64,000 nucleotides of DNA, taken from contig CAZPOV010000003.1 in assembly GCA_964588335.1 (NCBI GenBank), positions 148,125 to 212,124 on the forward strand, written 5' to 3'. The notes under the pieces were generated by a model. It saw nothing but the letters and a program-made list of their open reading frames with translations. It was not told the origin of the DNA and did no database searches. Numbering within the stretch: the first letter of the stretch is position 1; every line of letters begins with the position of its first letter. The DNA is from an uncultured Pseudobdellovibrionaceae bacterium (GTDB lineage: Bacteria; Bdellovibrionota; Bdellovibrionia; Bdellovibrionales; JAGQZY01). The position numbers and the translations under genes were made by a program. Shown here one piece after another: positions 6,635-55,081 of this stretch.

Positions 6635-7036
6635 ATGGAGAGTTTGAACAATATCATTAGATGGGGAATGATTCTGTTTTTTATCTTGGGGTCGAATCAA
6701 TTACTAGCCAACAATAAGAACGGCCAACTGGTCCAGTCGATTAACGAGGCTGTCAATCGCTCTGATAATGAACAAGATCAAATAAAAACAAAAATAGAAA
6801 AAGAAGCGGATCGCCGAGTTGAAACCTGGGCCGATCGCGATAGAGATTTAATAGTTATTCAACATTCGGGGATGTCGTCAACTGATCCCGCAAATCTGGG
6901 TGAGGCCGATTTCGACTACGAAGATGTCGGAATAGACCAAAGTGGCCTTGATCGATTGCGTACTGACGTTGAAGACGAACCGATTGATATAGATTTTGAT
7001 AAAGAATTAAGAGAAGTGAGTTCAGTGAAGGATTAA
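6635..7036 (+). CDS. acidic secreted hypothetical protein
   Basis: Signal/TM segment MILFFILGSNQLLA followed by a D/E-rich sequence. A terminator follows. Confidence 0.5.
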   Translation: MESLNNIIRWGMILFFILGSNQLLANNKNGQLVQSINEAVNRSDNEQDQIKTKIEKEADRRVETWADRDRDLIVIQHSGMSSTDPANLGEADFDYEDVGIDQSGLDRLRTDVEDEPIDIDFDKELREVSSVKD

Positions 7037-7123: not shown

Positions 7124-8410
7124 TTACTGCAGGCCTCGCATCTCCATAGCCACAATCACTTTGCTAATAGCTATGGAATAACAGGCGGTTCGATAATCCA
7201 GTTCATCCTGTTTCTTCTTTTGCAATATTCTTTCCCAAGCTTTATTGAGCTGTTTTTCAAGACGTTGCAAAACCGTTTCTCTCGACCATTGGTCCCGTTG
7301 ATGATTTTGCACCCATTCAAAATAAGAAACAATCACTCCACCGGCATTGGCCAAGATGTCAGGGATCACCTGGATCTTTTTTTGTCGAAAGACTTTCTCT
7401 GCCTCTAGACTCATAGGCATGTTGGCGCCCTCAACAATCATCGAAGCCTGAACCTTATCAGCATTGCCTTGGTGTAAAACACCCTCGATGGCGGCTGGAA
7501 TTAACACATCCACATCAAGCTCTAATAGCTCTTCATTACTGATTTTTTTCGCCCCACTCAGGTCACTTCCCAGGTCCGACAAGGCAAGACTGTTTGGTTC
7601 GGCTTCGCCGAGTTTGTCGATGATGGATCGAAGTTGAATGCCGTCTTCACAATAAAGTCCGCCCGATTTATCGGAGATCGCGACCACTTTGGCTCCCATT
7701 TCATCAAGACGTTGAGCTAAGTGGCGACCGACATTTCCAAACCCTTGAATAGCAATGGTTGCCGAATCCACATCCTTGCCCGATTCCTCTAAGGCTTTCT
7801 TGGTGACATAGGCAATACCGTAACCTGTGGCCTCTGACCGTCCGTGAATACCAGCGATTTCGGGACATTTACCTGTCACAACTCCAGGTTTGTAACCGGC
7901 TGATTTCGAAAATTGCTCGAATATCCAACCCATCTCTCGCATGCCGGTCCCCATATCAGGCGCCGGAATATCAATGTCAGGACCGATGTCATTTTTCAGT
8001 TTGTCGACGTACTTTTTTGTGATCGCTTCCAATTCTTGCTCCGAAACCTCTTCGGGGTCGACATCAATTCCGCCCTTGGCACCACCAAAGGGCACATCAA
8101 CCAATGAGCATTTCCAAGTCATTAGTGAAGCTAAAATTTCGAAATGGTCGAGATCAACATCGCGATGATAGCGCAATCCTCCCTTAAAAGGCCCGCGCGC
8201 ATTATTGTGCTGGACTCGATAACCGGTGTAAACAGCCATATCTCCTTGGCCGACCCGTATTGGAATCTCAACATAAATTCGTTTAGAAGGGTTTTTTAAA
8301 AAAAACTCCATTCGTTCATCAATTTTTTTGGGATGGTCACGAAGGCCCATATCGATAAAGCCCGATAAACTTGATTTCAAGGTTTCCATTTTACTTTGAT
8401 CTGCACTCAT
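7124..8410 (-). CDS. gdhA: glutamate dehydrogenase (Glu/Leu/Phe/Val dehydrogenase family)
   Basis: 428 aa with the FKGGLRYH, VPFGGAKGGI catalytic-Lys motif and the GFGNVG Rossmann motif. Confidence 0.88.
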   Translation of the reverse strand: MSADQSKMETLKSSLSGFIDMGLRDHPKKIDERMEFFLKNPSKRIYVEIPIRVGQGDMAVYTGYRVQHNNARGPFKGGLRYHRDVDLDHFEILASLMTWKCSLVDVPFGGAKGGIDVDPEEVSEQELEAITKKYVDKLKNDIGPDIDIPAPDMGTGMREMGWIFEQFSKSAGYKPGVVTGKCPEIAGIHGRSEATGYGIAYVTKKALEESGKDVDSATIAIQGFGNVGRHLAQRLDEMGAKVVAISDKSGGLYCEDGIQLRSIIDKLGEAEPNSLALSDLGSDLSGAKKISNEELLELDVDVLIPAAIEGVLHQGNADKVQASMIVEGANMPMSLEAEKVFRQKKIQVIPDILANAGGVIVSYFEWVQNHQRDQWSRETVLQRLEKQLNKAWERILQKKKQDELDYRTACYSIAISKVIVAMEMRGLQ

Positions 8411-8644
8411 AACTGACTGTTCTCCTTAGCGTATCCTCTGATAATACGAGGTTTGAATCAGCAAGCTCCATTTTGGTTTTTAGAATTTATGTAAATAACT
8501 ATAAGAAAAAGAAATGATGAAAAAACCAGCACAAGAGATTGATGTGTGAATGAAAATCCACAAATCGTAAACAAGTGAGTCGGGCAATTTTCTCTGCTTA
8601 TCAATAAATTGAAAAACTTAACGCCATATCCAGGAGAGTTTTCC

Positions 8645-10099
8645 ATGAGTCAGCAGAAAAAAGACATCAAGCCCACCACCAATGATGCTGGCCGCGCCAT
8701 CGCCAGTGATGAACATTCTCTGACCGTGGGGCCCGACGGTCCTATCGTCCTGCATGATGACTACCTGATTGAACAAATGGCTAATTTCAACCGAGAGCGG
8801 ATCCCTGAACGTCAGCCCCACGCCAAGGGCAGCGGCGCTTTTGGTCAATTTGAAGTCACCCAAGATATCTCCAAGTATACCAAAGCGGCGGTTTTTCAGC
8901 CCGGCACCACCACCAAAACTTTGGTTCGGTTTTCAACGGTGGCCGGAGAACGAGGCTCACCTGATACCTGGAGAGATCCGCGAGGTTTCTCGGTGAAATT
9001 TTATACCTCTGAGGGAAATTACGACATGGTCGGTAATAATACGCCGGTGTTTTTTATTCGCGACCCTATGAAGTTTCAACATTTCATTCGCTCTCAGAAA
9101 CGGCGGGCGGACAGTGGAATGCGTGACCACGATATGCAGTGGGACTTTTGGACGCTGTCGCCGGAATCCGCGCATCAAGTCGCCATTCTGATGGGTGACC
9201 GTGGCATACCAAAGAACTTTCGACAAATGAATGGCTACTCCAGTCATACCTATATGTGGGTCAACGCCGACGGTGAAAAGTTTTGGGTGAAGTACCACTT
9301 TAAAACCGATCAGGGGAATGACTTCCTCACTCAAAACGAAGCCGATCGTCTGGCTGGCGAAGACGGCGATTACCACCGGCGCGATCTGTTTAATGCGATC
9401 AAAAACAAAGACTTTCCCTCGTGGACTTTGAAAGTTCAGATCATGGAGTTTGATGAAGCCAAATCCTATCGCATCAACCCTTTTGATTTAACCAAAGTCT
9501 GGCCCCATGAAGATTACCCATTGCACGAAGTTGGTCGTTTAACTTTAAACCGTAACCCTACAGACTTTCACACCCAAATCGAACAAGCCGCTTTCGAACC
9601 CAATAACTTAGTTCCTGGTATTGGCCTCAGTCCTGATAAAATGCTTCTGGCGCGAGGCTTTGCCTATGCCGATGCGCACCGGGCTCGACTCGGAGTCAAT
9701 TACAAACAGATTCCAGTGAATAAGCCGCAATGTCCTTATCATAGTTACAGTAAAGACGGAGCCATGCGCGTGGAGCCGGTTGAAGATCCTGTCTACGCGC
9801 CAAACTCGTATGGGGGCCCTCATGCGGATCCCTCACAGGCGGCCAACGAGGCTGGCCTCTGGCACGCCGATGGTGACATGGTTCGCAAGGCCTACACCTT
9901 GCGCGAAGACGATGACGACTGGAGCCAAGCGGGAGCCTTAGTAAGAGAGATTATGGATGACGAAGCTCGCGGGCGTCTGGTGCAGAATGTTGCCGGACAT
10001 TTAAAAGGGGGCGTTAGCGATCCCATTCAAAAACGTGCGATCGAGTACTGGAAAAATATCGACAAAGATATTGGTCAAAGAATTGAAGCAGAGCTTTAA
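8645..10099 (+). CDS. katA: monofunctional heme catalase
   Basis: [32 protein letters not shown] and FxxRxxYxDAHR-type motifs. Start moved from the TTG at 8609 to the ATG at 8645, which is preceded by AGGAGA. Confidence 0.93.
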
Positions 10100-10120
10100 G
10101 TTTTATTGATCAAGAGACCA

Positions 10121-10151
10121 GGGAGGCTCCGGACCGGCCTCCCTTTTTTTT
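10121..10151 (+). terminator. rho-independent terminator of the catalase gene
   Basis: gggaggc-N9-gcctccc followed by T8. Confidence 0.75.
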
Positions 10152-10209: not shown

Positions 10210-10322
10210 AAAGTAGCTGATTTTCCCAAATTGATACGCCTTATTTTGAGCTGCTGAGCATGGGCTTTGCATCAATTTAAGATACATTATTATTGGCGGT
10301 CTTAAATTCTGGGGGGATTTTG

Positions 10323-11819
10323 ATGATCTTTAGGCTTTTTATAGCATTAGGATTCACATTAGGCTTAACAACGGCTTGTGGACCGATAAACAATTCTGGA
10401 AACGGTGTCAGTTTCAAAACTTACAACTCTATATATGAAGACACAACCGGACATCCCGACGACCAGGGCGACTTTGGATTGGTCGGTCAAACACCGGGCC
10501 TGCAAAATGGCGATGGTGGTTTAGGGTCCGGTGATGGTCCTGGATCGACTTCCAATAACGATGGTGGCCTCACTGGAAATGGTGGAACGGCCAACGTGAA
10601 CCTTGGTCTTGGAACTTGGACCGGAGGCACCAGCCCTCTCCAACAACCGGATGGAGGCCTGATGGGTGGCAATCCAAACCTTGTTGGGGGAACCATGAGT
10701 CGCCCCGCTCAAGACAATGTCTTGGTTGGAATGAACGTTAAGAAAATGTGCCAAGCCGGTGAGATTGATATTCTTCGCGCCGTTTTACCATGTCAGCCCG
10801 ATCAAAACCTTATTGTCACAATGAAAGACAGTATGGGTGAGGTTCTTCTTGAAAATTTTGGTTCCGTGAGCAGCAACAACGGCGATGTCGATACCTTGGT
10901 TGATAAATTGAAAGCCATGCAGTTAAGCGGCGCCATGGTGGGCACAGCCTTAGGCCTGTTTATTTGTATTGACCATAATGCTAACAACAGTTGTGAAGAT
11001 GAAGAGATCACAGATCTCAATGAACACAATGATGATTTTTTATTTGCTGTGAGAAAATCTGATGATGGTGCCAGGGCCCGTGCTGAAGCGGCACAACAAC
11101 TGTGCGCAGAAGATCGCTTGGGCTCACTAAAAAACGGACTTTTGGTGTATCACCAGGAGTTTGTTGACTCCACCGGTGACATCAAATCCAGTGGTGTGAA
11201 AGATCGCGAAAATGTGGCTGAAGAAGTGGCCAGACATATTAAAAACATTGTTGAAGAGAAAGAAGCCATCGACTTTGAACAGGGCACACAGTTCAGTTTG
11301 ACTTTGGTGGAATCGGACAAAGAAACTTGCGAAGAGGTCGGTGCTCGTATGCACGGTTGCTTTATCGCAGGCACAGAGATCTCTCTCAACTCGGATCTTA
11401 AAGTGAATGTCGAAGACCTTCGAGCCGGGGATTCAATCCTACTATCAAGCGGTAAGAAGTCTGAGATTGTAAAAGTGATCAGTGGACCTGAAAAGCACCC
11501 GGTCGTGAAACTTCAGTTGGTTAGCGGTGAAAGTTTAACTGTTACCCAAAGCCACCCCATGTTAACAGAAATGGGTGTGGTGCAAGCCAAAGACCTAAGC
11601 ATAGGCAGTCGATTGCTAACGGCCAAAGGTCATTGGGTGACATTGAGCTCGATCGCGACCGAGTCCTACAAAGGCCATGTCTACAACTTTGAACTGGCGG
11701 GAAGTCACGAAACCGATCACTTGATTTACGGAAACGGAATTGTGACCGGCGATCTCTATCTGCAGCAAAAACTGCAAGACAAACCCACACCAGGAATTCA
11801 CTTCACCTTAAATTACTAA
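10323..11819 (+). CDS. lipoprotein with Gly/Asn-rich linker and C-terminal Hint (Hedgehog/intein-like) autoprocessing domain
   Basis: Lipobox LGLTTAC. The Hint domain starts at HG|CFIAGTEISL (Cys codon 11358-11360), has a TxxH block (TVTQSHPML) and a terminal block VYNFELAGSHETDHLIYGNGIVTGD. Start placed at the ATG at 10323, after a GGGGGG RBS. Confidence 0.75.
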   Translation: MIFRLFIALGFTLGLTTACGPINNSGNGVSFKTYNSIYEDTTGHPDDQGDFGLVGQTPGLQNGDGGLGSGDGPGSTSNNDGGLTGNGGTANVNLGLGTWTGGTSPLQQPDGGLMGGNPNLVGGTMSRPAQDNVLVGMNVKKMCQAGEIDILRAVLPCQPDQNLIVTMKDSMGEVLLENFGSVSSNNGDVDTLVDKLKAMQLSGAMVGTALGLFICIDHNANNSCEDEEITDLNEHNDDFLFAVRKSDDGARARAEAAQQLCAEDRLGSLKNGLLVYHQEFVDSTGDIKSSGVKDRENVAEEVARHIKNIVEEKEAIDFEQGTQFSLTLVESDKETCEEVGARMHGCFIAGTEISLNSDLKVNVEDLRAGDSILLSSGKKSEIVKVISGPEKHPVVKLQLVSGESLTVTQSHPMLTEMGVVQAKDLSIGSRLLTAKGHWVTLSSIATESYKGHVYNFELAGSHETDHLIYGNGIVTGDLYLQQKLQDKPTPGIHFTLNY

Positions 11820-11842: not shown

Positions 11843-11874
11843 AAAAAAGAGCGCCATCAGAGCGCTCTTTTTTT
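11843..11874 (+). terminator. rho-independent terminator
   Basis: aaaaagagcgc-catcaga-gcgctcttttttt. Confidence 0.7.
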
Positions 11875-12011
11875 GTTGGAATCGCCTGCATTGTTTGCCG
11901 CCAATGAGTCAGCCCCACCAGGGCCTCCCTCGATTGAAAAGTAGTCTTCGAAGAGATTGTTTTTGTTGGTTTATTTTTACGTAGGGAAAACCTCGACCGA
12001 AGACCCCGGTT

Positions 12012-12294: not shown

Positions 12295-13549
12295 TTGGAG
12301 TTCTGTGTGCGTTTTTTGTTTGTAGTCCTGTTGTTGTTAGCCCAGGGAGCCCAAGCGGTGGCTCTTCGGTGTTCGAACATTTTTAAATCCGAAGACGTGC
12401 CGGCCATTTCAGACATGATGGACGAGAGTGGGTTTATCAACCTTTATGGAGGAAAGCCACGACGTGCCCCAGGCCAACAAGCCCGCCTGAGCCGCCTGTA
12501 TCCCGATTCAGTTTAGAGAGCCTGCAAGGCTTAGCTCGCGAGGGACGCAAACATGTGCGTGGCAACCAATGGCCACGAAGCACCCTGGACCGTTTCTTGG
12601 AGTTCACACGCCTCACCCCTCAAGATATTGCTGAACTCACTGTAGCCCAACAGATGGCGCTGTTGAATGCCTTTGGGCAGTGGAATCTTTTGCTGCCTCG
12701 GACACTCCATTCCCGTATCGAAAGCCAATTAACGAGAGATTTCTCACAGTGGTCGCCGCCGGACTTTCTTGAATTTGCCCTGTTTCGAAAAATCAGCCCG
12801 CAAAGCTTTAGCTCCACATTCTTAAGAGGCTATCGAAGCCAGGTGTCTTGTTGCGATTTCCAGAATTAAACGCCAGCACTCAATTGGAAGTTTTGGCTGC
12901 CGAAATCATGCAGGGGAGTCGTTGGAATTTACGGCAGACTAAGGATTTACTTGAACAGACGTCGATATCTGTTGAAACAGAACCGGGTATTCTTCGACTG
13001 AAACCCCTAAAAGAAATGTTTCGCGCTCTCAGTTTCTTAAGAGCGACCGAGCCGACCTTCTTCTTCCATGAAATTGTTCGATTGGAAACAGCTCTTGAAA
13101 ATCAGTTGAACCGACAAAACCTCTCTTTACAGGAAGGCGGAACCAGCGGCTCCAACAACCCGAATCGTCCTTTCGGCCCCAGTTTCGTGGAATTGCAAAA
13201 CCGCATCGATACCCGCTGGCCAGGCCAAGAAAAGGTTTTTGAGGCCATGGAACCCCAGACTCTCGGACTCTTTGACCCCGTCGACCTTTATTATCCAAAC
13301 TTACGATTGGTGGTGGAGTGGGACGGACCGATTCACTACTTTCGTCAGCTTAACGATCGTGGCGGGCTAGAAAACCATGTTTTCGTCTTACGCCCCATTG
13401 ATGCTATCAAAGACCAAAGCCTTCGCCAGCTGGGAATCTCGGTGTTGCGTTGGCCCAAACACTTAAACCACTTGGTCGAACGGGTGGACATTGAGGCCAT
13501 CATTCAATCCCAGAACCCTCGGAATTGGGACCCCGGCCTTTCAAACTAA
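12295..13549 (+). pseudogene. RAP/DUF559-like (PD-(D/E)xK, Vsr-fold) nuclease-domain protein with signal peptide and helical repeats, split into three frames (12295-12516, 12555-12869, 12848-13549)
   Basis: Three consecutive same-strand ORFs sit in frames 1, 0 and 2 with overlapping open windows (frame 0 is open from 12387, frame 2 from 12812). One extra T in the TTT run at 12512-12514 would fuse ORF1 and ORF2. A repeat motif (RFLEFTRLTPQDIAEL / RFPELNASTQLEVLAAEI) spans the second break. The C-terminus has DPVDLYYPNLRLVVEWDGPIHYF...KDQSLRQLGISVLRWP. Confidence 0.5.
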
Positions 13550-13822: not shown

Positions 13823-14383
13823 TTACAGAATCAGTTTACGCATCTCGTTTTGTGAATAAACGAAGTCAGCGTAAATCATGGTGTTTGTTATGTTCCGGTG
13901 TCCCAGGGCGATCTGCAGCAATCGCAAATCTTTAACCTTTTTGTAAAGTCGAATGGCGAAAGTGTGGCGCAGACAGTGGAATTTCTTTTTCACCGGCCGG
14001 TAATGATCCCAAATCTGGCGTAAACGGTGGTAGGAAATATCAAACAGTTTTTCGCCCTTTAGGGTTTTAGAATAGTCCTCAAGCATATCAAAAAGCCATT
14101 CAGGAAGGGGGATTTCACGGTCGTTGGAGCCCTTGATACCATGAATGAAAACACTCTGCTCGTAAACGTTCAGGTCTTCTTTTTCAATATTCAATATTTC
14201 TGTGGCCCGAGCTCCCGTATAGATAGCGACGTAAAGTAAAAGGCAGTTACGACGCTCTTTTAGAACGTAACGTTTAAGTAAAAGCTCTAAGTGCTCAAAC
14301 TCGGGGTCCAGCAAATATTTGTTCTTATTAATGGCATAGGGCTTTTTATTTCGCCTTTTTGATTTATCACTTTCTTCAGCCAT
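13823..14383 (-). CDS. minimal tyrosine recombinase (catalytic domain only, 186 aa)
   Basis: TGARATE (Arg), HGIKGSNDR (Lys), HCLRHTF (H-x-x-R), LGHRNITNTMIYADF (His...Tyr nucleophile). There is no N-terminal SAM-like core-binding domain. Confidence 0.85.
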   Translation of the reverse strand: MAEESDKSKRRNKKPYAINKNKYLLDPEFEHLELLLKRYVLKERRNCLLLYVAIYTGARATEILNIEKEDLNVYEQSVFIHGIKGSNDREIPLPEWLFDMLEDYSKTLKGEKLFDISYHRLRQIWDHYRPVKKKFHCLRHTFAIRLYKKVKDLRLLQIALGHRNITNTMIYADFVYSQNEMRKLIL

Positions 14384-37245: not shown

Positions 37246-40200
37246 ATGAGAAAAGTTTTTATTCTGTTTATTCTTTTCTCAATCAGCTTTGCCTTAAAGG
37301 GTGCTGGTATCCTGAGTGACACCCACAATTCGGTTCTCCTAGCCATTGGATTGGTGATATTGGCAGCCTATACTTTGTCTGAGGTGGGTTCGACTTTGAA
37401 ACTCCCGCGGGTCACCGGCTATATTTTAACTGGTCTTCTCCTGGGTCCTTACGCTTTAAAGATTCTTTCGGTCACTGTTGTTAAAGAAATCGAGATGTTT
37501 AACACCTTGGCGATCGGCTTGATTGCCACAACCGCCGGTTTGGAGCTGCATTTTTCATCACTGAAAAAAGTGATCGCACCTATTTTGTCGACTTCGGCTT
37601 TAAAAATCCTATTTTTAGCGATAACCAGCGTCGGCGCTTTTTATATAGCCAATATGTATATTCACGATTTCGGTCTGGGCATGGGATTACCACTGATCTC
37701 TTTAGCCTTGGTTTTTGCCGCATTGGCTTTAGGAACCTCTCCGGCGATTTCGATAGCGGTTATTTCCGAAATGAAGGCAAAAAGTCGCATGAGCCAAATG
37801 GTTCTGGGTTCGGCCATCGTCAAAGATGTCTTGGTGGTGGTTATCCTTGCGGTTTGTATCTCGTTCACGAAATCGATCACCATTGGTGGCGGGGACATTG
37901 GCTCTAGTTTCTTACATTTGATGGAAGAGCTGGCTTACTCCCTTTTGGCCGGAGGTGTTTTAGGGGCTCTTTTCATTGGCTACTTGAAGTTTGTTCGCAA
38001 AGAAATGTTTTTATTTATTGCGGCTATGATTTTAACCACAGCCGAGGTCAGTCAGACTTTACATCTTGAGCTTCTGTTGGTTTTTATCGTCGCCGGAATT
38101 GTGGTTCGCAACTTCTGTGAGGAGCAACACATTCTGCATGAAGCTCTAGAAAAAGTCTCACTGCCGGTGTTTGTCGTCTTCTTTACCAATGTTGGAGCCG
38201 GTCTGGATTTGACCTCGACCTGGGCTTTCTTACCGGTGGCAGGACTGTTATTTGCCACTCGAGCTTTATCTTTCATAGGTGGTTCTTGGTTGGCCGGCGC
38301 CTGGCATGGTGAATCCGCGCCCATTCAAAAGAAAATATGGCTGGGGTATTTGCCACAAGCCGGGGTCACCCTCGGGTTGATCCAGATTGCTTCAAAAAGT
38401 CTTCCGGAACATGCGTCTATTATAACCAATGTTGGGATCGGCTTGGTAACATTGAATCTTTTAATCGGGCCCATTTTTCTACGCATGGTTTTGCAGGCCG
38501 AGGAGCCGCAAGGGGACACTGAAGAGGAGAGCACTCAAGACTCCACCACCATTGAGGATGTGCAGTCAGAACGACCGCCGCAGAAGCCCGCTGAGGTGTC
38601 TGAGTTTGACAGTGATTTCGACCTCATGCTGCACTCTCACACCGAGGACATGGATGATCCTCTTTTAGAGAAACAGTATTATGAATTGTCACAAGCGGTT
38701 TACGATGTTTTCAAAAAATCGCAAGTTCTCCCTCAAAAAGCCATTTTAAATACCTTTCTGGAAGCCCTTGAGAAAATGGGTGACCTCCCAGAAAAAGAGA
38801 TCGTTAACAAAATCGACGATCATTTTCGCAAAATGGGTGAGAAAGGACGTGACATCTACAATGCGATTGCCGCTTATAAAAAAGAAGTGGATCGACAAGT
38901 TGTGGTTATGAAAAGGCCGTACCCAGCCTCCGGCATTTACCTGCAAAAAGGTGACTCGGTTGTCGTGCAAGCCAAAAAACTTATGCAACGACCTTACTAT
39001 TGGTTTGCCAAGCGTCCGACTCGAGAAATTCCTTTGCGGAAAATAGCGAAATACAACCTTGATCCCATGATTGGCGCTTTTTCACTCAGTATGATCAACT
39101 CCTGGTACCGCTTACTGGGCAAACACATTGCTATTTTTCAAAAATCTTTAGAGGATCATGAGTTCAATTCAACAGAGATTATCGAAAAAATCTCAAAAGA
39201 AAACGAAATCTGGTTTCGTTCCATCCAATCCGATTTTCACAAAGAGTTTTCACAGGCTTCCAATCGATGGGTGAGCCACCTTAGGAACGTCAACACACCA
39301 GCGCTGCCCGATACGCACCTGCGCTACTCACAAGTGGAACCACAGATCTCAGAGAATTTTGAACGGGCCAAGAAATTCTCAGTCAACTGGGAAGAGAAGT
39401 TTGTTTACTGTCGAAACCGCCTAAAGGTGATCGTACAGTCGGCGCTGCTTTCCAATGCCGTTGAAACTCTGCTTGATGAAAAGTTTTTTGGTCCCGTCAA
39501 CACTGCCAAAACCAATACTGACCTTATGGTCAAAGACGTGTTTTCGTTCTTTGATCGCATCGAAAGGGAACTGAAAGAGACGGAGTCTTTTGATAAAACG
39601 GCCTACGAAAAACTGCATCAAGACACCAAAGCTTTTAGTGAAGATCATCTGCAGGCGGAAATTAAGACCAAATATGTGCGTGGAAGCTTTCGCCTGTTAA
39701 ACCGTGATATTTCATTGAATTTAAAAAAGAACCTTCCCAAAGAGGAGGGGTCTTTTCAGATCGCCTCGGAGCAAACACCGGCCGACCAGGTGAGTTCCCC
39801 ATCAGAAATAATAGTCAAGAAAATCAATCTCACCGAACTGTTTGAACAAAGCATTCTTATTAACTTTCTTCCGGTCATTGAAGAAAGAATCGAAGGGGTC
39901 TCAAACTACCTTGAGTCGCTCTTGCTTGAGATGGAGCAGGCCTTCTCAATCATTCACTACAGTCTTGAATCTCAGATTGCCGGCGAATCGGAATTGAACC
40001 CAAAAGAACTCACCGATAGCCTTTTAACGTCGATCACTTCCGAAAGAGAAAAGATCAATGAGATCTATGAAGGACTGGTGAGTTACATCGATTCTTCAAG
40101 TATCGCCACGGAAAAACTTTTAGAAGAGGTTCAAGGTGAGGTTCGTTTGGGGATTGAGCGCTTTTCAGTGGTCAACACCGCCAAAAATCAATTTCGCCAA

Positions 40201-41475
40201 CGTCTTTACAATATTGTGCAAAAGGGCCGACAGCTTAAACATGACGTTGACGATAAAATTGACAGCGCTTATCAGAAAATCAAGAAACTTGGCATTCAGC
40301 AAACCGAGCGTGAAGTTGATCGAGCGATCAGCAACAAAATTCAGTCGAAAACTCTGGACACCACCACCATTCGACAGTTTATCAAAGAAACCTATTCCTT
40401 TGATCGCGAGCTTAAAAAATTACCGCGTGTCTATTTCCGACTTTTCAGTTTGGATCCGATTCAAGATCGACGCTTCTTTGTGGCGCATCGGGATCGCTGG
40501 CGTCACTTTGAGCCCTTCACACGCGACCAGGGTTTTACCGAAAGCCAAAAGATCTTGGTCATCGGCGACCGCGGAATCGGCAAGTCGTCGCTTATCAACG
40601 TGGCTCAGATGGAAATTCAGAACACGCGCTTGATACGCATCGACGGTGAGTCACAAGGTGGTCCGCTCAATGAACTGACTCGAGCTCTAGGCTGCAAGAA
40701 CAACAATGCCTCTATACTGGCTGCGCTTCGTAAAAACGGAGCCACCATCGTGATGGACAACGTCGATCAGATGCTCAGTAAAAACAATCTCGATCGTTTC
40801 GAGCGTCTGTTTGATATTATTAAACAGTCACCTCACGAAGCCCATTGGATTCTTTCAATCACCAGTTTCAACCTGGATCCTTTGGACCGAGCCTTCAAGA
40901 TTCGCAGTCTTTTCAATAAGCTTATTGACCTGAATGAGATCAACTTAGAGACCTGCAAAGAAATCATCTTGGGCCGCCATCGGTTGAGTGGTTTAGAAAT
41001 TGAGTATCCTCGAACCTTAATGAGCGATCTGGCCATGAAAGTCGGTTTTTCTTCTGAGGATGAAATGTTTTTCCGCGTTCTTTATGAACGTTCGGGTGGG
41101 CACCTTCGTCACTTGATCTACCTGTGGCTTCTTAGTCTCGAAGATTCCGATGGCAAGAAAATCAAGCTGTCACTCAATCGCTCTATCGACCGTGGCTTAC
41201 CGATGATTCACGAATTCTCGGTTTTACAAAAATACATTCTTCACGAGCTCTACAGCTTTCATTCACTCAGTGTTCAGCAAATGAGCCAAAACTTGGGAGT
41301 GTCTTACTCCATTGTCGACAACGAAACTCAGTACCTGGAGCACTGTGGACTGATTGAAACCAAAGGGATTGACCGCAGTGTTTTCGAAATCCCCAACCCT
41401 CTGGTGATGCCGGTGGGTACGGAACTTAAAAAGGAGGGCGTCCTGAATGAAGGATTCAACAACTTACGCCTCTAG
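37246..41475 (+). CDS. 1409-aa fusion: N-terminal CPA2 (Kef-like) antiporter domain + acidic linker + ~650-aa helical region + P-loop ATPase (AAA/ATPase_2-like) + C-terminal winged-HTH-like domain
   Basis: CPA2 start LKLPRVTGYILTGLLLGP and ~12 TM segments up to about residue 410. Walker A is VIGDRGIGKSSL (40564-40590) and Walker-B-like ATIVMDNVDQ. The C-terminal LSVQQMSQNLGVSYSIVDNETQYLEHCGLIETKG is wHTH-like. The ATG directly abuts the trkH stop. Confidence 0.8.
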   Translation: MRKVFILFILFSISFALKGAGILSDTHNSVLLAIGLVILAAYTLSEVGSTLKLPRVTGYILTGLLLGPYALKILSVTVVKEIEMFNTLAIGLIATTAGLELHFSSLKKVIAPILSTSALKILFLAITSVGAFYIANMYIHDFGLGMGLPLISLALVFAALALGTSPAISIAVISEMKAKSRMSQMVLGSAIVKDVLVVVILAVCISFTKSITIGGGDIGSSFLHLMEELAYSLLAGGVLGALFIGYLKFVRKEMFLFIAAMILTTAEVSQTLHLELLLVFIVAGIVVRNFCEEQHILHEALEKVSLPVFVVFFTNVGAGLDLTSTWAFLPVAGLLFATRALSFIGGSWLAGAWHGESAPIQKKIWLGYLPQAGVTLGLIQIASKSLPEHASIITNVGIGLVTLNLLIGPIFLRMVLQAEEPQGDTEEESTQDSTTIEDVQSERPPQKPAEVSEFDSDFDLMLHSHTEDMDDPLLEKQYYELSQAVYDVFKKSQVLPQKAILNTFLEALEKMGDLPEKEIVNKIDDHFRKMGEKGRDIYNAIAAYKKEVDRQVVVMKRPYPASGIYLQKGDSVVVQAKKLMQRPYYWFAKRPTREIPLRKIAKYNLDPMIGAFSLSMINSWYRLLGKHIAIFQKSLEDHEFNSTEIIEKISKENEIWFRSIQSDFHKEFSQASNRWVSHLRNVNTPALPDTHLRYSQVEPQISENFERAKKFSVNWEEKFVYCRNRLKVIVQSALLSNAVETLLDEKFFGPVNTAKTNTDLMVKDVFSFFDRIERELKETESFDKTAYEKLHQDTKAFSEDHLQAEIKTKYVRGSFRLLNRDISLNLKKNLPKEEGSFQIASEQTPADQVSSPSEIIVKKINLTELFEQSILINFLPVIEERIEGVSNYLESLLLEMEQAFSIIHYSLESQIAGESELNPKELTDSLLTSITSEREKINEIYEGLVSYIDSSSIATEKLLEEVQGEVRLGIERFSVVNTAKNQFRQRLYNIVQKGRQLKHDVDDKIDSAYQKIKKLGIQQTEREVDRAISNKIQSKTLDTTTIRQFIKETYSFDRELKKLPRVYFRLFSLDPIQDRRFFVAHRDRWRHFEPFTRDQGFTESQKILVIGDRGIGKSSLINVAQMEIQNTRLIRIDGESQGGPLNELTRALGCKNNNASILAALRKNGATIVMDNVDQMLSKNNLDRFERLFDIIKQSPHEAHWILSITSFNLDPLDRAFKIRSLFNKLIDLNEINLETCKEIILGRHRLSGLEIEYPRTLMSDLAMKVGFSSEDEMFFRVLYERSGGHLRHLIYLWLLSLEDSDGKKIKLSLNRSIDRGLPMIHEFSVLQKYILHELYSFHSLSVQQMSQNLGVSYSIVDNETQYLEHCGLIETKGIDRSVFEIPNPLVMPVGTELKKEGVLNEGFNNLRL

Positions 41476-47727: not shown

Positions 47728-50700
47728 TTACTGTTCTAAAAAGTAAGGGCCCCAGTTTTGCTGTTGACGCTGATAAAACCTTTCAGTGTTGATTTGAAAC
47801 TGGTTCATTTCATTCTGAAATTGATAAACACTTTGAGTTAATGGCTTAAACTCAAAAAGATCATCTTGCAGACTGACTTTGAGCTGAGAAGGGTTTTCTG
47901 GATAATAATCAAGAAACAAAGCCTCGGCATTCTCGTAAAGCTGATGAGCTGCATCCAATTGTAAATTCAAATCCTTTTTCGCTTGCACAAACTGCTGATC
48001 TAAAATTTCTTTATCAAATTTAAAAAGAAACAGTCCACGCCGAGTACGGGCCTCAAAAAATTCTTGAGCTCGAAAAAAGTAGGTTTTCCAAAAATCGCCA
48101 TCGCGATCATAGGACGGGGACACAGCGGCTCGAACCAAGTTGCGAGAGGTCGCATGAAAATTAAGGGAAACATAATAATCATTAATAAAATTACGTCCAA
48201 GATAAGGGGACGTCACCATCTCCAACGGCAAATCTAAAAATCCTTTCAGTCGACTGAATGGGATTGGCTTTTCGGTTTCATTGATCACCGCAAAGGCTTT
48301 GCTCTGTTGATGGCCTATTCCGGTATCGAACAGCAATTGAATACCCATGTTCTGTTTATGGAGAAAGTCCGTCTCCTTAATCGCCTCAAGATAGGTCTGC
48401 TCAGCTTGATCAATCTGCACCAGATTAAAACTCTGATGCATAGCTCGGGCTAAATCTTCAAGTGCCACTTTCTCTTCGATCAAACAGTCTTCAGAAAGGG
48501 GACGGTTAAGTTCTTGGCATTGTGGCTTGTCGTAGTTGGCAATTTTGTAGCCATTGAAAAAATACCGTTGAACCAAATGATCCAAGCGACCTTTTTCATA
48601 ACTTTCAAGATTTTCGACGTTCGACGAGTAATGGATCACCTCTTCTTTATCCCAAGCTGTGTAGAGTTCTCGTTTGGGAGAAAAGCTGAATTGATCAGAG
48701 GCTTGGGCCACGGCCTCAAGCGCAATCGCCGCCGCTGTCATATTGGGACGGTAGTGGACTACCGAGTCCGGAGCCTCGCGGTACGGAAAATCGGGGCTAT
48801 TGAGAGCATCAATAGGCATCTGTATGGTGAGACTACGACCGACGACGGCCGGAATCTCAAGATCAATAGCTTCATTCTGGTTGTACCTTAAACCGGTTGT
48901 CAGATAACGACGCACTCGGTTCATGTAGCTTTGTTTGGTAAACTTATAAAAAACCTGATCACCACTTTCAGACTTCACAATCCGAGAATCGTAATGCGAA
49001 CTGCGACCATTGACTTCAAAAAGAATATCATTGGCTTCATCGACGGTGAGTTCCGATTGATAAACCGCTTTTAAAAGAGGATAGACGGCTTTCATAAAGT
49101 ATTGCTTTTCACTTAAAACCACGGCTTTGGCTCGGCGTCGAGACTCATTGATTGAAACATACATGCAGTCATCAAAGATTTTTCCGTAAAAAGCCTGTTG
49201 TCCAAGATAGGATCGCACTCGATTATCAAGACTTTGAAAATAACGGGCTGTCGACTCAAGAGGAACTCTTGAAAACTCAGAATTCTGACGTTGCAGTTTT
49301 TGATAAGCCTTCATCACCTGATCAAAATATCCCATGATCGGAAGCACTTCTTGCCGAATTCGCGAGGTCACTGTTAAAGGTGAAGTATGAGTGAAATCCG
49401 CCGGATCAATCATAATAGAATCAAACTGAGAGCTTCGAAATTCATCACTATAGAAAAAGTTTGTATAAAACCGGTCCGAGATCTTTCGGTTCTCGAAGAA
49501 ATCTTTACTAAAACCCAAAAGATACTTGTCGAGATCGAAATACCGGATCAGCTCAGGTTGGTATTGATCCTTTTTAATTCCCTCACACCAACGAGCCCAA
49601 CGTCGCGACAGACTGTCTGGCGAATGATAAAGGTCACGCTGCATCTCCTGCACTGTCGAAATTAATATTTCTCTTTCGATCACTAAGTCTTTGAATAAAG
49701 TGAGAATAAAATCATCAGGATCAAAACCGTAAGATTTATAAACATTACCGGCAAAAAAGTAGTAAAAACTATCGACAATTTCGTGACGAAATAGACTGAC
49801 TTTGTTTTTTAAGGCACCAGAACCAATTCCATCTTCCGATTTTAAAAAATCGAACCATAAGCCACGGTAGGCACCAGCAAAGAACAGCTCGACAATAAGA
49901 TCGGCATTAACATCAAAAACACCAAGAAGCTTATCTTTCCACTCCGAGCGAACCATCTCGTACATGAAGGCCATCATATTTGGGTAAATCACTGTCTTCA
50001 TGACATTACGATCGATACTGCTAAAAAACTCTGCGATTTCATTGATTTGTTGCGAAGAAAGGGCTGTCGATTGCGCTTCAAGAAGATTTTGTAAAGCTTC
50101 GACACGACCGGTGTGAAATTCGACCCAATCAGGACGAAGAGTGTTTGCATAATCTTTCGAAGCCTTAACATGTTGAGCCGACTTGGTGGCCTGACTGTTG
50201 TAAAACGCTGCAATTTTCTCATTGGTATCGACTGCCATAATAGCTAAATCCCAACGGATTAAAACTTTACTGTAGTCGATGAGTCGGTCCAATGACTCGG
50301 TTTTGTTTGGAAAACTACGGATTAATAAGTTGGCCTGAGTGATCGACATTTCTTTGAAATAGACTGAAAACAGAACATGGTACTCCCATGGAGCGATTTC
50401 AAACATCTTTTGTATGTTGATATCTTTATAAGCCGGGTACTCAGAAAGATCCTTTTTACTGGCAATCATTTCTTGCCAATAGGCTTGCGCGTAGCGATCA
50501 AAACTGTCTCGAATCTCAGGATTCTCGTTGGCGTAAATCGAAATAAAAGGCGTTAAGAAGTTTTTAAGATCACGGTCCACCAAGGATGATTCCGACGATG
50601 CCTGTTGCCAAGGCGCCAAACGTATGAAATAGCGGCGTTGAAACTCTGAAGGGTTCTGCCAGTCCATCAGCTGAAAAGCCGCGATCACGTTGTGTGAGTG

Positions 50701-51387
50701 TCGTGCTTTTTCTGGAATATCGATATTTTGGTCCACCATAGAGAAAAAAGTTTCAATATAAAGTTGCGACAGATTGTCTTTTTGCCGACGGTTACCAACC
50801 TCGTAGGCAACACCAATCAATTTCAATTTACTTTCTAGATTGTCTTCGTTTTCAATAAAATAAATGACTATATCAACCAAGGAACTGGCCTGTGGAAGAC
50901 TTTCGCGCAGGTATGTACAGGTGTTGATACTGTCATCAGTACAAGGCGTGATGAAGCGCTCACGAAACAACGCCAATGATTTTTCAAACTCTGAACGAAA
51001 AGTGTCGTCGTTTGAGGTTTTGAATTTGACAAATAGGTCACGGTACAAGTTGAGGTAACCAGCATAAGGTCGACTTCCATATTGCGACTTGTCTTTTGAC
51101 CCCGGTCCAAACAACGCCAATTGGAGGCGCTCTAAAGCCAACACCCAACTCTCGATGGATTCAGATTCAATCAAAGCCTGAATTTGTAGATGATCGGGGC
51201 CATATTGCACAGACACTTCGCCGGCAGGGGATTGAGGTTCAACTCGGGTATTGGCCAAATCCTCATCCACGACTTTCTGGTGACGCGGCAGCTCCTTATC
51301 GGTGCAAGCGACGCCCCCAAAAACAAGGGCCAGTGCTAAAGTGCTTTGATAAAATGCTTTTACCCAATCGGTCTTAATCATTAACAA
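47728..51387 (-). CDS. 1219-aa orphan lipoprotein, paralog of the upstream 1234-aa gene
   Basis: Lipobox FGGVAC. I recognise no motif in it. A shared block with 51374..55078 is IYPNMMAFMYEMVRSEW...LIVELFFAGAYRGLWFDF versus AYPSMYPMLVAMTKNEL...LISLFFSGSFSPWFSY. The start overlaps the upstream gene by 14 nt. Confidence 0.7.
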   Translation of the reverse strand: MLMIKTDWVKAFYQSTLALALVFGGVACTDKELPRHQKVVDEDLANTRVEPQSPAGEVSVQYGPDHLQIQALIESESIESWVLALERLQLALFGPGSKDKSQYGSRPYAGYLNLYRDLFVKFKTSNDDTFRSEFEKSLALFRERFITPCTDDSINTCTYLRESLPQASSLVDIVIYFIENEDNLESKLKLIGVAYEVGNRRQKDNLSQLYIETFFSMVDQNIDIPEKARHSHNVIAAFQLMDWQNPSEFQRRYFIRLAPWQQASSESSLVDRDLKNFLTPFISIYANENPEIRDSFDRYAQAYWQEMIASKKDLSEYPAYKDINIQKMFEIAPWEYHVLFSVYFKEMSITQANLLIRSFPNKTESLDRLIDYSKVLIRWDLAIMAVDTNEKIAAFYNSQATKSAQHVKASKDYANTLRPDWVEFHTGRVEALQNLLEAQSTALSSQQINEIAEFFSSIDRNVMKTVIYPNMMAFMYEMVRSEWKDKLLGVFDVNADLIVELFFAGAYRGLWFDFLKSEDGIGSGALKNKVSLFRHEIVDSFYYFFAGNVYKSYGFDPDDFILTLFKDLVIEREILISTVQEMQRDLYHSPDSLSRRWARWCEGIKKDQYQPELIRYFDLDKYLLGFSKDFFENRKISDRFYTNFFYSDEFRSSQFDSIMIDPADFTHTSPLTVTSRIRQEVLPIMGYFDQVMKAYQKLQRQNSEFSRVPLESTARYFQSLDNRVRSYLGQQAFYGKIFDDCMYVSINESRRRAKAVVLSEKQYFMKAVYPLLKAVYQSELTVDEANDILFEVNGRSSHYDSRIVKSESGDQVFYKFTKQSYMNRVRRYLTTGLRYNQNEAIDLEIPAVVGRSLTIQMPIDALNSPDFPYREAPDSVVHYRPNMTAAAIALEAVAQASDQFSFSPKRELYTAWDKEEVIHYSSNVENLESYEKGRLDHLVQRYFFNGYKIANYDKPQCQELNRPLSEDCLIEEKVALEDLARAMHQSFNLVQIDQAEQTYLEAIKETDFLHKQNMGIQLLFDTGIGHQQSKAFAVINETEKPIPFSRLKGFLDLPLEMVTSPYLGRNFINDYYVSLNFHATSRNLVRAAVSPSYDRDGDFWKTYFFRAQEFFEARTRRGLFLFKFDKEILDQQFVQAKKDLNLQLDAAHQLYENAEALFLDYYPENPSQLKVSLQDDLFEFKPLTQSVYQFQNEMNQFQINTERFYQRQQQNWGPYFLEQ

Positions 51388-55078: not shown

Positions 55079-55081
55079 CTC

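What the first reader, a model, noticed from the sequence alone, without database searches (positions are those of the whole stretch)
10323..11819. Lipoprotein ending in a Hedgehog-style 'G|CF' Hint domain that lacks the intein C-terminal Asn
- **Seen, domain layout:** the lipobox (LTTAC) is followed by a G/N/D-rich linker and a ~200-aa middle region. The Hint-like module starts at HG-CFIAGTEISL (Cys356 of the track ORF, nt 11358).
- **Seen, Hint blocks:** it has a T-x-x-H block (TVTQSHP) and a terminal block ...HLIYGNGIVTGD. The usual intein 'HN' is replaced by 'GD', and only ~28 aa follow.
- **Established:** Hedgehog proteins self-cleave at a Gly-Cys-Phe site via the Hint Cys thioester, and loss of the terminal Asn precludes splicing but not N-terminal cleavage. 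Bacterial intein-like (BIL) domains and PT-HINT domains usually sit upstream of a toxin cargo, whereas this one is terminal.
- **Inference:** the module self-cleaves and releases or transfers the lipid-anchored N-terminal domain, possibly ligating it to a nucleophile.
Basis: partly seen in the sequence, partly recalled or inferred. Interest (0 to 1): 0.6.

Follow-up and report, generated by a model that had tools for sequence, protein, structure and literature searches.

The report
Self-cleaving Hint tail on predator lipoprotein
A Bdellovibrio-like bacterium encodes a membrane-anchored lipoprotein whose last 150 residues are an intein/Hedgehog-type self-cutting module that can cut itself off but cannot splice; it belongs to a small, unannotated family seen only in uncultured relatives of predatory bacteria.

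Summary
ORF 10323-11819 (+) encodes a 498-aa lipoprotein: signal peptide with lipobox Cys19, a roughly 110-aa Gly/Asn-rich linker, a Cys-rich domain of about 210 aa, and a C-terminal Hint domain starting at G345|C346-F. The Hint call rests on Pfam PT-HINT above its cut-off, a PDB profile hit to a bacterial intein-like (BIL) domain, and a predicted fold matching BILs and mini-inteins.

In 63 distinct family Hints the N-cleavage residues never or almost never vary (Gly-1, Cys1, Thr408, His411). The intein His-Asn is replaced by invariant Gly476 and Asp/Glu477. The +1 residue is always Leu, so splicing is excluded. Only 9-37 residues follow, so there is no cargo.

The closest relatives are bacterial BIL domains, not Hedgehog. 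The family is always C-terminal and carries varied N-terminal partners. The middle domain has no known fold or family: 39 cluster representatives among 1.84 billion, nearly all fused to this Hint.

Most likely mechanism: thioester-mediated self-cleavage at Gly345|Cys346, which sheds the Hint and leaves a 34-kDa lipid-anchored domain. Transfer of the thioester to another nucleophile is not excluded. C-type BILs were described in Bdellovibrio in 2009, and I could not test identity with them. I rate it a new variant of a known kind, of moderate interest.

The parts
10266..10317 (+). Weak sigma-70-like promoter match (10266-10293) and GGGGGGA ribosome-binding run (10311-10317), 5 nt before the ATG
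   Evidence: 9/12 promoter match, not above shuffle expectation; sequence
10323..11819 (+). Whole gene: 498-aa lipoprotein with C-terminal Hint domain (stop TAA 11817-11819)
10323..10379 (+). Signal peptide MIFRLFIALGFTLGLTTA and lipobox Cys19 (TGT 10377-10379)
   Evidence: Sequence. The Cys aligns with L-[ST]-[GA]-C lipoboxes of orthologues
10380..10709 (+). Linker of about 110 aa, rich in Gly/Asn/Thr/Asp (30 Gly in 110), predicted disordered and variable in length between orthologues
   Evidence: composition; pLDDT 23-30; indels
10710..11342 (+). Cys-rich middle domain (aa ~130-340) of unknown fold. Conserved Cys143, 157, 215, 224, 261 and 336
   Evidence: No Pfam, PDB or Foldseek relative
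10965..11003 (+). Family hallmark loop C215-I-D-H-N-A-N-N-S-C224-E-D-E. It resembles a disulfide-closed, calcium-binding-type acidic loop (inference)
   Evidence: C215 and C224 42/42, D217 41/42, D226 and E227 38/42; motif present in 41 of 42 members
11355..11360 (+). Predicted self-cleavage site Gly345 | Cys346 (GGT TGC)
   Evidence: Gly and Cys invariant in 63/63 Hints
11358..11753 (+). Hint domain proper, Cys346-Asp477 (132 aa, 14.1 kDa)
11544..11555 (+). Block B Thr408-Gln-Ser-His411 (intein positions B:7 and B:10), which assist the N-S acyl shift
   Evidence: T 62/63, H 63/63. Roles as described in PMC4031507
11748..11753 (+). Gly476-Asp477, occupying the intein His(G:6)-Asn(G:7) position
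   Evidence: register against BIL2 6Y75; G 63/63; D 59, E 4
11754..11816 (+). 21-aa tail LYLQQKLQDKPTPGIHFTLNY. Leu478 and Gln481 are invariant; residues 478-485 are a predicted helix
11843..11879 (+). Intrinsic-terminator-like hairpin followed by a T-run, directly after the stop codon
   Evidence: RNAfold -15.7 kcal/mol. The scan did not list it

Best explanation
The gene encodes an envelope lipoprotein of a Bdellovibrio-like bacterium. Its C-terminal Hint (bacterial intein-like) domain acts once, in cis, as a self-removing module.

**Proposed steps.**
1. After export and lipidation at Cys19, Cys346 attacks the Gly345 carbonyl (N-S acyl shift), helped by Thr408 and His411.
2. The resulting thioester is resolved, most likely by water or a small thiol.
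3. A 34-kDa lipid-anchored fragment remains: the flexible Gly/Asn-rich tether plus the Cys-rich, probably calcium-binding, domain ending at Gly345.
4. A 16.6-kDa Hint-plus-tail fragment is set free.

**What cannot happen.** Splicing is impossible, because residue +1 is an invariant Leu and there is no real C-extein.

**Shown versus inferred.**
- Shown: domain identity, residue conservation, architecture and family distribution.
- Inferred: that cleavage occurs, and what becomes of the thioester.
For: **Hint identity.** Pfam PT-HINT is above its gathering score. A profile hit to the PDB BIL domain 2LWY has E 3e-10. The predicted fold superposes on BILs and mini-inteins with target TM 0.8-0.9.

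**Catalytic set conserved in 63 distinct Hints, at pairwise identities down to about 30% between members.**
- G345, C346 and H411: 63/63.
- T408, E390 and H466: 62/63.
- N455: 63/63.

**Purifying selection.** The Hint is at least as conserved as the 'cargo' domain between orthologues. Hint identities to the window protein for five shared homologues are 80, 68, 64, 65 and 41%. Middle-domain identities for the same five are 74, 50, 51, 46 and 32%. This is not a decaying remnant.

**No splicing and no cargo.** Leu478 is 63/63, and tails are only 9-37 aa.

**Domain boundary.** Middle-domain-only relatives P0084, P0085, P0087 and P0088 end 3-25 aa after the last conserved Cys (=Cys336). This is just before the position of the cleavage site, so the N-fragment is a self-sufficient unit.

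**Extracytoplasmic location.** Lipobox Cys and conserved Cys pairs.

**Precedent.**
- BILs catalyse splice-site cleavage uncoupled from splicing (PMC4031507).
- From my memory of the abstract of Dori-Bachash et al. 2009 (PMID 19153786, not readable here): the C-type BIL of the secreted B. bacteriovorus protein Bd2400 showed in vitro N-terminal autocleavage and in vivo processing.
Against: - No experimental data exist for this protein or any family member.
- Block F:4 is Asn455 rather than the usual Asp.
- The invariant Gly476-Asp/Glu477-Leu478-x-x-Gln481 motif and the conserved tail have no role in a simple hydrolysis model. This hints at an additional step: activation of a nucleophile, C-terminal cleavage, or substrate recognition.
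- A module that only removes itself has no obvious benefit unless it serves as a pro-domain or chaperone.
- The periplasm is oxidising, and Cys346 could be trapped in a disulfide.
Confidence: 0.55

Rival explanations
1. Hedgehog- or BUBL-like transfer. The Gly345 thioester is resolved not by water but by a specific nucleophile, such as a lipid head group, a peptidoglycan amine, or a lysine of a partner or prey protein. The C-terminus of the lipid-anchored domain then becomes covalently attached. Asp/Glu477, or Glu390 at the Hedgehog Asp46 register, would act as the general base.
For: - An invariant acidic residue sits at G:7, with invariant Leu478/Gln481 and a conserved tail that plain hydrolysis does not explain.
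- Glu390 (62/63) lies 44 residues after Cys346, the same register as Hedgehog Asp46 (my own alignment from the remembered Hh-C sequence; inference).
- The same Hint subtype is fused to at least four unrelated N-terminal partners, as in nematode Hog proteins.
- Precedents exist: cholesterol transfer in Hedgehog (PMC5874633) and isopeptide conjugation by Tetrahymena BIL2 (PMC8616854).
Against: - The tail is only 9-37 aa, far shorter than the roughly 60-aa sterol-recognition region of Hedgehog (size from my memory).
- No conserved neighbouring gene suggests an acceptor.
- An acidic residue at the Glu390 position is common in ordinary inteins and BILs.
- Hedgehog is only a distant structural match (rank 38-39).
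Confidence: 0.15
2. Double cleavage, or A-type-BIL-style ligation. Asp477 (or Glu) cyclises, as Asn does in inteins, and cuts the Asp477|Leu478 bond to release the 21-aa tail. The freed tail amine might then attack the thioester and join the tail to Gly345.
For: - Asp/Glu occupies exactly the G:7 position.
- Inteins with C-terminal Asp, Gln or Glu can cleave by cyclisation, and about 5% of functional inteins lack His G:6 (PMC4031507).
- His466 (F:13), which assists cyclisation, is conserved 62/63.
- The tail is well conserved among orthologues.
Against: - The penultimate His is replaced by an invariant Gly.
- The 'L-x-L-Q' start of the tail travels with the Hint whatever the N-terminal partner. 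It is absent from middle-domain-only proteins, so it behaves as part of the Hint module, not as a C-extein.
- Tails can be as short as 9 residues.
Confidence: 0.12
3. Non-catalytic Hint. The domain has lost processing activity and serves as a binding or structural module at the end of a surface lipoprotein.
For: - G:6, G:7 and F:4 all differ from the intein consensus.
- Most family members fall below every Pfam Hint threshold.
Against: Gly-1, Cys1, Thr B:7 and His B:10 are invariant or nearly so (62-63 of 63) across very divergent members. That is hard to explain without catalysis. The residues that changed are those needed only for the C-terminal steps.
Confidence: 0.1
4. Classical PT-HINT: a pre-toxin Hint that releases a C-terminal polymorphic toxin.
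For: PT-HINT is the best Pfam model.
Against: - Only 21 residues follow the Hint, then a stop codon and a terminator.
- No family member carries a C-terminal domain.
- No immunity-like gene lies downstream.
Confidence: 0.02

Closest known systems
C-type bacterial intein-like (BIL) domains of predatory bacteria (Dori-Bachash et al. 2009, Funct Integr Genomics 9:153, PMID 19153786; Bd2400 of B. bacteriovorus)
   Same: - A Hint domain in secreted or envelope proteins of Bdellovibrio-type predators.
- Located at the C-terminal part of the protein, directly after a lineage-specific domain ('PPS-1', cited in PMC9185962).
- N-terminal autocleavage rather than splicing (my memory of the abstract).
   Different: - I could not obtain the published sequences or motifs, so identity is untested.
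- Of the 30 family members looked up for source names, none came from a cultured strain; the only names were MAG or metagenome 'hypothetical protein'. C-type BILs were defined on four cultured predators.
- From my memory of the abstract, Bd2400 has a signal peptide and a PKD domain rather than a lipoprotein with a Gly-rich linker.
A-type BIL / Pfam PT-HINT (PF07591), e.g. Clostridium thermocellum BIL, PDB 2LWY
   Same: - Best sequence and structure match.
- C-F-x-x-G-T start and T-x-x-H-P block.
- No +1 nucleophile.
   Different: - A-type BILs end in His-Asn and sit between two protein parts, often upstream of a toxin or variable domain.
- This one ends Gly-Asp/Glu, has Asn at F:4, and is always terminal with a short conserved L-x-L-Q tail.
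Hedgehog / Hog autoprocessing domains (Pfam Hint PF01079; PDB 1AT0)
   Same: - A C-terminal Hint that cleaves at Gly|Cys-Phe and is discarded.
- No terminal Asn.
- Varied N-terminal 'cargo' domains within one family.
- An acidic residue at the Asp46 register (Glu390).
   Different: - Only a distant match: 18.4 bits against a cut-off of 29.7, and Foldseek rank 38-39.
- No adduct-recognition region of comparable size.
- Bacterial, and lipidated at the N-terminus by the lipoprotein pathway.
Tetrahymena BUBL BIL2 (PDB 6Y75/6TMM)
   Same: - Hint fold: E 1.3e-5, E about 2e-8.
- It shows that a BIL thioester can be passed to a lysine amine (PMC8616854).
   Different: BIL2 keeps His-Asn and lies between two ubiquitin-like domains. 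It is eukaryotic.

Membership tests
Hint superfamily (Hedgehog/intein fold) | Significant profile match to a Hint model | tested here: met
   PT-HINT 33.8 bits against a cut-off of 27.7, E 4.7e-8. PDB profile hit to 2LWY at E 3e-10.
Hint superfamily (Hedgehog/intein fold) | Hint fold | tested here: met
   AlphaFold model with Hint-region pLDDT about 65-90. Foldseek gives 63 PDB Hint hits at E <= 1e-3; target TM 0.81-0.89 for the top three.
Hint superfamily (Hedgehog/intein fold) | N-terminal Cys/Ser nucleophile and block B Thr-x-x-His | tested here: met
   C346 and H411 63/63, T408 62/63.
Intein | C-terminal Asn (or Gln/Asp) preceded by His, and a Cys/Ser/Thr at +1 | tested here: not met
   Gly476-Asp477, and the +1 residue is Leu478 in 63/63.
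Intein | Inserted within a conserved host protein, with a functional C-extein | tested here: not met
   Only 21 aa follow (9-37 in the family), then a stop codon and a terminator.
A-type BIL / PT-HINT | C-terminal His-Asn | tested here: not met
   Gly-Asp/Glu is invariant. The definition of type A is taken from PMC4031507.
A-type BIL / PT-HINT | Followed by a C-terminal toxin or variable domain | tested here: not met
B-type BIL / Pfam Hint_2 | Match to Hint_2 and no similarity to intein block G | tested here: not met
   Hint_2 scores 23.3 bits against a cut-off of 28.4 and covers only aa 346-386. Block G similarity ('NGIV-x-x-x') is retained.
C-type BIL (predatory bacteria) | Occurs in secreted proteins of predatory bacteria | tested here: met
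   Relatives are Bdellovibrionales, Pseudobdellovibrionaceae, Oligoflexia and 'Deltaproteobacteria' MAGs. A lipoprotein signal is present.
C-type BIL (predatory bacteria) | Sequence motifs of the published C-type alignment, and a PPS-1 domain immediately upstream | not testable with these tools
   The paper is not held and no sequence of Bd2400 was available. Two unrelated domains occur upstream of this Hint subtype (A3 versus A4); either, or neither, may be PPS-1.
C-type BIL (predatory bacteria) | Autocatalytic N-terminal cleavage | not tested
   Needs an experiment.
Hedgehog/Hog | Gly|Cys-Phe cleavage site | tested here: met
   G345-C346-F347: Gly and Cys 63/63, Phe 61/63 and Tyr 2. The motif is not specific to Hedgehog.
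Hedgehog/Hog | Match to Pfam Hint PF01079, and a sterol/adduct-recognition region after the Hint | tested here: not met
   18.4 bits against a cut-off of 29.7. The tail is only 21 aa. 1AT0 ranks 39th by structure.
Bacterial lipoprotein | Signal peptide ending in a lipobox with an invariant Cys | tested here: met
   MIFRLFIALGFTLGLTTA-C19. The aligned Cys sits in canonical L-[ST]-[GA]-C boxes in P0005-P0007, P0057 and P0058. Lipidation itself was not tested.

The most novel reading that the evidence does not exclude
This terminal Hint family is a bacterial counterpart of Hedgehog/Hog processing. The Gly345 thioester would be handed to a defined non-water nucleophile, with the invariant Asp/Glu477 (or Glu390) as general base and the conserved L-x-L-Q tail helping to position the acceptor. 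Candidate acceptors are a membrane lipid, a peptidoglycan amine, or a lysine on a partner or prey protein. The result would be a lipoprotein covalently fixed at both ends, for example an enzyme-free outer-membrane-to-wall tether or a covalent hook on prey. The 20-residue-N-extein members would then be peptide-thioester generators.
Probability: 0.12. Interest if true: 0.85.

Novelty: new variant of a known kind. Interest (0 to 1): 0.45.

Why it matters
Hint domains are the chemistry behind protein splicing, Hedgehog lipidation and many protein-engineering tools. This family has several features that mark it out:
- It is compact (132 aa) and naturally terminal.
- Its N-cleavage machinery is invariant, but it has an acidic residue where inteins have Asn.
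- It operates in the cell envelope.

If active, it is a ready-made natural 'thioester generator' without the C-terminal side reactions. It would also show how predatory-lineage bacteria mature, or possibly covalently attach, surface lipoproteins.

The family also defines an unannotated Cys-rich domain with a calcium-loop-like hallmark. That domain is found almost only fused to this Hint.

If the family is simply the C-type BIL already described in Bdellovibrio, the result is a useful extension of that family to lipoproteins and to uncultured lineages, not a new principle.

Tried and rejected
1. **Hedgehog affinity.** Rejected as the closest relationship. Pfam Hint and Vint are below threshold, and Hedgehog structures rank 38-39 behind BILs and mini-inteins.
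2. **Toxin cargo / PT-HINT system.** Rejected. There is no C-terminal domain in any member.
3. **Middle-domain identification.** All routes were negative:
   - Pfam and NCBIfam.
   - PDB by sequence profile (best E 0.047).
   - Foldseek of a dedicated model against PDB (best E 0.89).
   - Word-indexed search with the domain profile, which found only known members.
4. **Two upstream domains.** I tested whether the middle domain and the other domain found upstream of this Hint type (alignment A4) are related, which would have pointed to 'PPS-1'. hhalign gave probability 0.1, so they are not related.
5. **Literature.** The 2009 C-type BIL paper and the 2008 proteome paper are not held. Citing papers give only one sentence, and the Bd2400 mentions give no sequence information.
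6. **Conserved partner genes.**
   - Only a small secreted acidic protein (6635-7036) and a small recombinase-like ORF are syntenic in close relatives.
   - P0008 has a different context (Peptidase_S8 downstream).
   - No acceptor or processing partner emerges.
7. **Second Hint in the window.** None was found by an HMM search of the six-frame translation.
8. **Source names.** Of the 30 family members looked up, the only names were MAG or metagenome 'hypothetical protein'; no cultured strain appeared.
Full report
**1. The observation**

The window carries an ORF on the + strand from ATG 10323 to TAA 11817-11819, encoding 498 aa. The ATG has a GGGGGGA run 5 nt upstream, and all orthologues start at the equivalent Met.

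The gene has its own terminator-like hairpin at 11843-11879 (-15.7 kcal/mol, then a T-run). The upstream catalase gene ends with another at 10120-10144. The gene therefore looks monocistronic.

The protein has five parts:
- A signal peptide ending L-T-T-A-Cys19.
- A linker of about 110 aa with 30 Gly and 12 Asn, predicted disordered.
- A Cys-rich domain of about 210 aa.
- The sequence R-M-H-G345|C346-F-I-A-G-T, which opens a Hint domain.
- A 21-aa tail.

The Hint assignment is not a chance resemblance:
- Pfam PT-HINT scores 33.8 bits (cut-off 27.7, E 4.7e-8). Five other Hint-clan models hit the same stretch below threshold.
- A profile of nine family Hints finds PDB 2LWY, 'bacterial intein-like domain', at E 3e-10, and many inteins.
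- The AlphaFold model (Hint region pLDDT about 65-90) gives 63 Foldseek hits at E <= 1e-3, all Hint folds among the 50 listed. The best are 2LWY (target TM 0.81, rmsd 2.2 A) and the gp41-1 mini-intein (0.89).

21 residues, not about 28, follow Asp477. The expected fragments are 34.4 and 16.6 kDa.

**2. Anatomy of the Hint and what is conserved**

I collected relatives three ways:
- The whole protein: 10 hits in 5.8 billion clusters.
- A Hint profile: 37 more.
- An exhaustive HMMER search with the middle-domain profile: 39 representatives in 1.84 billion.

Aligning the 63 distinct Hints that include both ends gives these conserved positions:
- 63/63: Gly345, Cys346, Thr351, Gly388, His411, Ala422, Val453, Asn455, Gly476, Leu478, Gln481.
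- 62/63: Glu390, Thr408, Pro412, His466.
- Asp477: Asp in 59 and Glu in 4.

In intein block nomenclature (PMC4031507):
- Thr408 is B:7 and His411 is B:10.
- Asn455 is F:4, which is usually Asp.
- His466 is F:13.
- Gly476 is G:6, which is usually His.
- Asp/Glu477 is G:7, which is usually Asn.

The register at block G follows from the HMMER alignment to Tetrahymena BIL2 (6Y75), where '..HNFFANGVL' plus three residues reaches Asn143.

So every residue needed to make the N-terminal thioester is fixed. The residues for branch formation and Asn cyclisation are replaced in a uniform, conserved way. With Leu at +1, splicing by the intein route is excluded.

All members are C-terminal, with 9-37 residues after Asp/Glu477, beginning L-[YFH]-[LI]-Q. 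This start of the tail travels with the Hint whatever lies upstream, so I treat it as part of the Hint module. It is a predicted helix, residues 478-485.

**3. The rest of the protein and the family**

The middle domain has no relative in Pfam or NCBIfam. It has none in PDB by sequence or by fold, using a dedicated model of pLDDT 64 with a core near 80.

Its hallmark is the loop C215-x-D-x-[ND]-x-[ND]-x-x-C224-x-D-E:
- C215 and C224 are 42/42.
- D217 is 41/42.
- D226 and E227 are 38/42.

I read this as a disulfide-closed, calcium-binding-type loop. That is an inference from its resemblance to Dx[DN]x[DN]G motifs. Cys143 and Cys336 are also near-invariant, which fits an extracytoplasmic, oxidised protein.

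Of the 39 representatives, 35 carry the same C-terminal Hint. These are typically 400-550 aa, many with lipoboxes. Four (P0084, P0085, P0087, P0088) are the middle domain alone and stop 3-25 residues after the Cys336 equivalent. This marks the domain boundary just before the cleavage site. It also shows that the N-fragment can function without a Hint.

Conversely, the same Hint subtype is fused to unrelated N-terminal parts:
- An 812-824-aa class with a different Cys-rich domain directly upstream (alignment A4). It is unrelated to the middle domain by hhalign.
- Small secreted Cys-rich proteins.
- Proteins whose whole N-extein is 18-25 residues with no signal peptide. For P0028 the ORF start is unambiguous.

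Thirty members were looked up for source names. Those with an organism label are MAGs of Bdellovibrionales, Pseudobdellovibrionaceae, Oligoflexia or unclassified 'Delta/Proteobacteria'. None came from a cultured strain, and every name given is 'hypothetical protein'.

**4. Genomic context**

The window is about 92% identical at protein level to a Bdellovibrionales MAG (L001) and syntenic with it.

In more distant relatives (L002-L004, L008/L009) the conserved order is:
- fabH-fabD-fabG-acpP-fabF and rpmF on the - strand.
- A small secreted acidic protein on the + strand (window 6635-7036).
- The Hint lipoprotein on the + strand.
- A variable insert.
- A 186-aa Phage_integrase-type ORF on the - strand (window 13823-14383).

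In this window, glutamate dehydrogenase and catalase have been inserted between the small acidic protein and the Hint gene. No immunity gene, transporter or candidate acceptor is conserved. A distant member (P0008) sits next to a subtilisin instead. Context therefore gives no functional partner.

**5. Mechanism**

Best-supported reading (confidence 0.55):
1. The protein is exported and lipidated at Cys19.
2. The Hint performs an N-S acyl shift at Gly345-Cys346.
3. The thioester is hydrolysed.
4. The Hint-plus-tail fragment (16.6 kDa) leaves. The tethered Cys-rich domain (34.4 kDa) stays on the membrane with Gly345 as its new C-terminus.

Supporting points:
- The N-cleavage residues are invariant.
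- The Hint is under purifying selection at least as strong as the cargo domain. Hint identities are 80, 68, 64, 65 and 41%. Middle-domain identities for the same five homologues are 74, 50, 51, 46 and 32%.
- BILs are known to carry out cleavage uncoupled from splicing.
- From my memory of its abstract, the Bdellovibrio C-type BIL of Bd2400 was shown to cleave N-terminally in vitro and to be processed in vivo.

This model does not explain the invariant Gly-Asp/Glu-Leu-x-x-Gln motif and the conserved tail. Three rivals therefore stay open:
- **(a)** Transfer of the thioester to a specific nucleophile, as in Hedgehog or BIL2, with Asp/Glu477 or Glu390 as base (0.15).
- **(b)** Cleavage at Asp477|Leu478 by Asp/Glu cyclisation. 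This is chemically precedented for inteins ending in Asp, Gln or Glu, and might be followed by A-type-BIL ligation of the tail (0.12).
- **(c)** A catalytically dead Hint (0.10). This is disfavoured, because exactly the N-cleavage residues are the ones that never vary.

A PT-HINT toxin-release role is excluded by the absence of any cargo.

**6. Comparison with known systems**

*What it works like:* a Hedgehog/Hog-type or BIL-type single-turnover autoprocessing domain.

*What it is a member of:* the Hint superfamily. All features tested were met.

*What it is not:*
- An intein: no Asn, no +1 nucleophile, no C-extein.
- An A-type BIL/PT-HINT in the strict sense: no His-Asn, no downstream domain.
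- A B-type BIL/Hint_2: below threshold, and it retains block G similarity.
- A Hedgehog Hint: below threshold, rank 38-39 by structure, and no adduct-recognition region.

The most likely home is the 'C-type BIL' class described in 2009 for predatory bacteria. That class is accompanied by a 'putative predator-specific domain 1' (PMC9185962). I could not read that paper or obtain Bd2400, so membership is untested.

One point argues for at least a distinct clade. None of the 30 members checked for source names came from a cultured organism. The 2009 class was defined on four cultured predators, according to my memory of the abstract.

**7. Verdict**

The Hedgehog flavour is overstated. Cleavage would release the Hint, not the lipid-anchored part. 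Terminal Hints of this kind form a family rather than an oddity.

Novelty: a new variant of a known kind (BIL/Hint autoprocessing). It could drop to 'new member' if it proves to be a C-type BIL.

Interest is moderate at 0.45. The invariant acidic G:7 residue, Asn at F:4, the conserved tail, the strictly terminal position and the peptide-sized N-exteins make a coherent, testable case for an unusual Hint chemistry. No evidence yet shows anything beyond self-cleavage.

Noticed in passing
L005 5001-5555 (P0028); also P0022, P0026, P0031: Proteins of 174-196 aa consisting of an 18-25-residue N-terminal peptide without a signal peptide, then G|CF and the same Hint with the GDLYLQ tail. The ORF start is unambiguous: it is the first start codon after a stop, with GAGGA upstream. 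They could be generators of a short peptide or peptide thioester.
   Followed up: partly
window 6635-7036 (+): A 133-aa secreted, very acidic protein with no Pfam match. It lies directly upstream of the Hint lipoprotein gene in L002, L003, L004 and L008/L009. In this window it is separated from the Hint gene by the inserted glutamate dehydrogenase (7124-8410, -) and catalase (8609-10099, +).
   Followed up: partly
window 13823-14383 (-): A 186-aa ORF with only the catalytic part of a Phage_integrase/tyrosine recombinase. It is 86-99% identical across L001, L003 and L004, which makes it more conserved than its neighbours. It always flanks the Hint gene across a variable insert.
   Followed up: no
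L008/L009 7769-12799: In the P0005 relative, the slot between the Hint gene and the small recombinase holds a RiPP-like cluster: a 56-aa ORF, PqqD, radical SAM/SPASM, a nucleotidyltransferase and an ABC transporter. The slot behaves as an insertion hotspot. In this window it holds ORFs 12295-13549.
   Followed up: no
P0009/P0010 (812-824 aa), P0011-P0017; alignment A4: A second Cys-rich domain (CPxxARCF...RTPF..V...SC.AT...R.DLG|CF) sits immediately upstream of the same Hint subtype. It is unrelated to the middle domain by hhalign and may be the published 'PPS-1'. P0009 and P0010 start with a pilin/TadE-like hydrophobic N-terminus.
   Followed up: partly
P0084, P0085, P0087, P0088: Stand-alone versions of the middle domain (253-351 aa) that end a few residues after the last conserved Cys, i.e. 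where the Hint would begin.
   Followed up: partly
window 37246-41475 (+), 47728-59209 (-): Four very large ORFs (1219-1409 aa); the three on the - strand are consecutive. I did not examine them.
   Followed up: no
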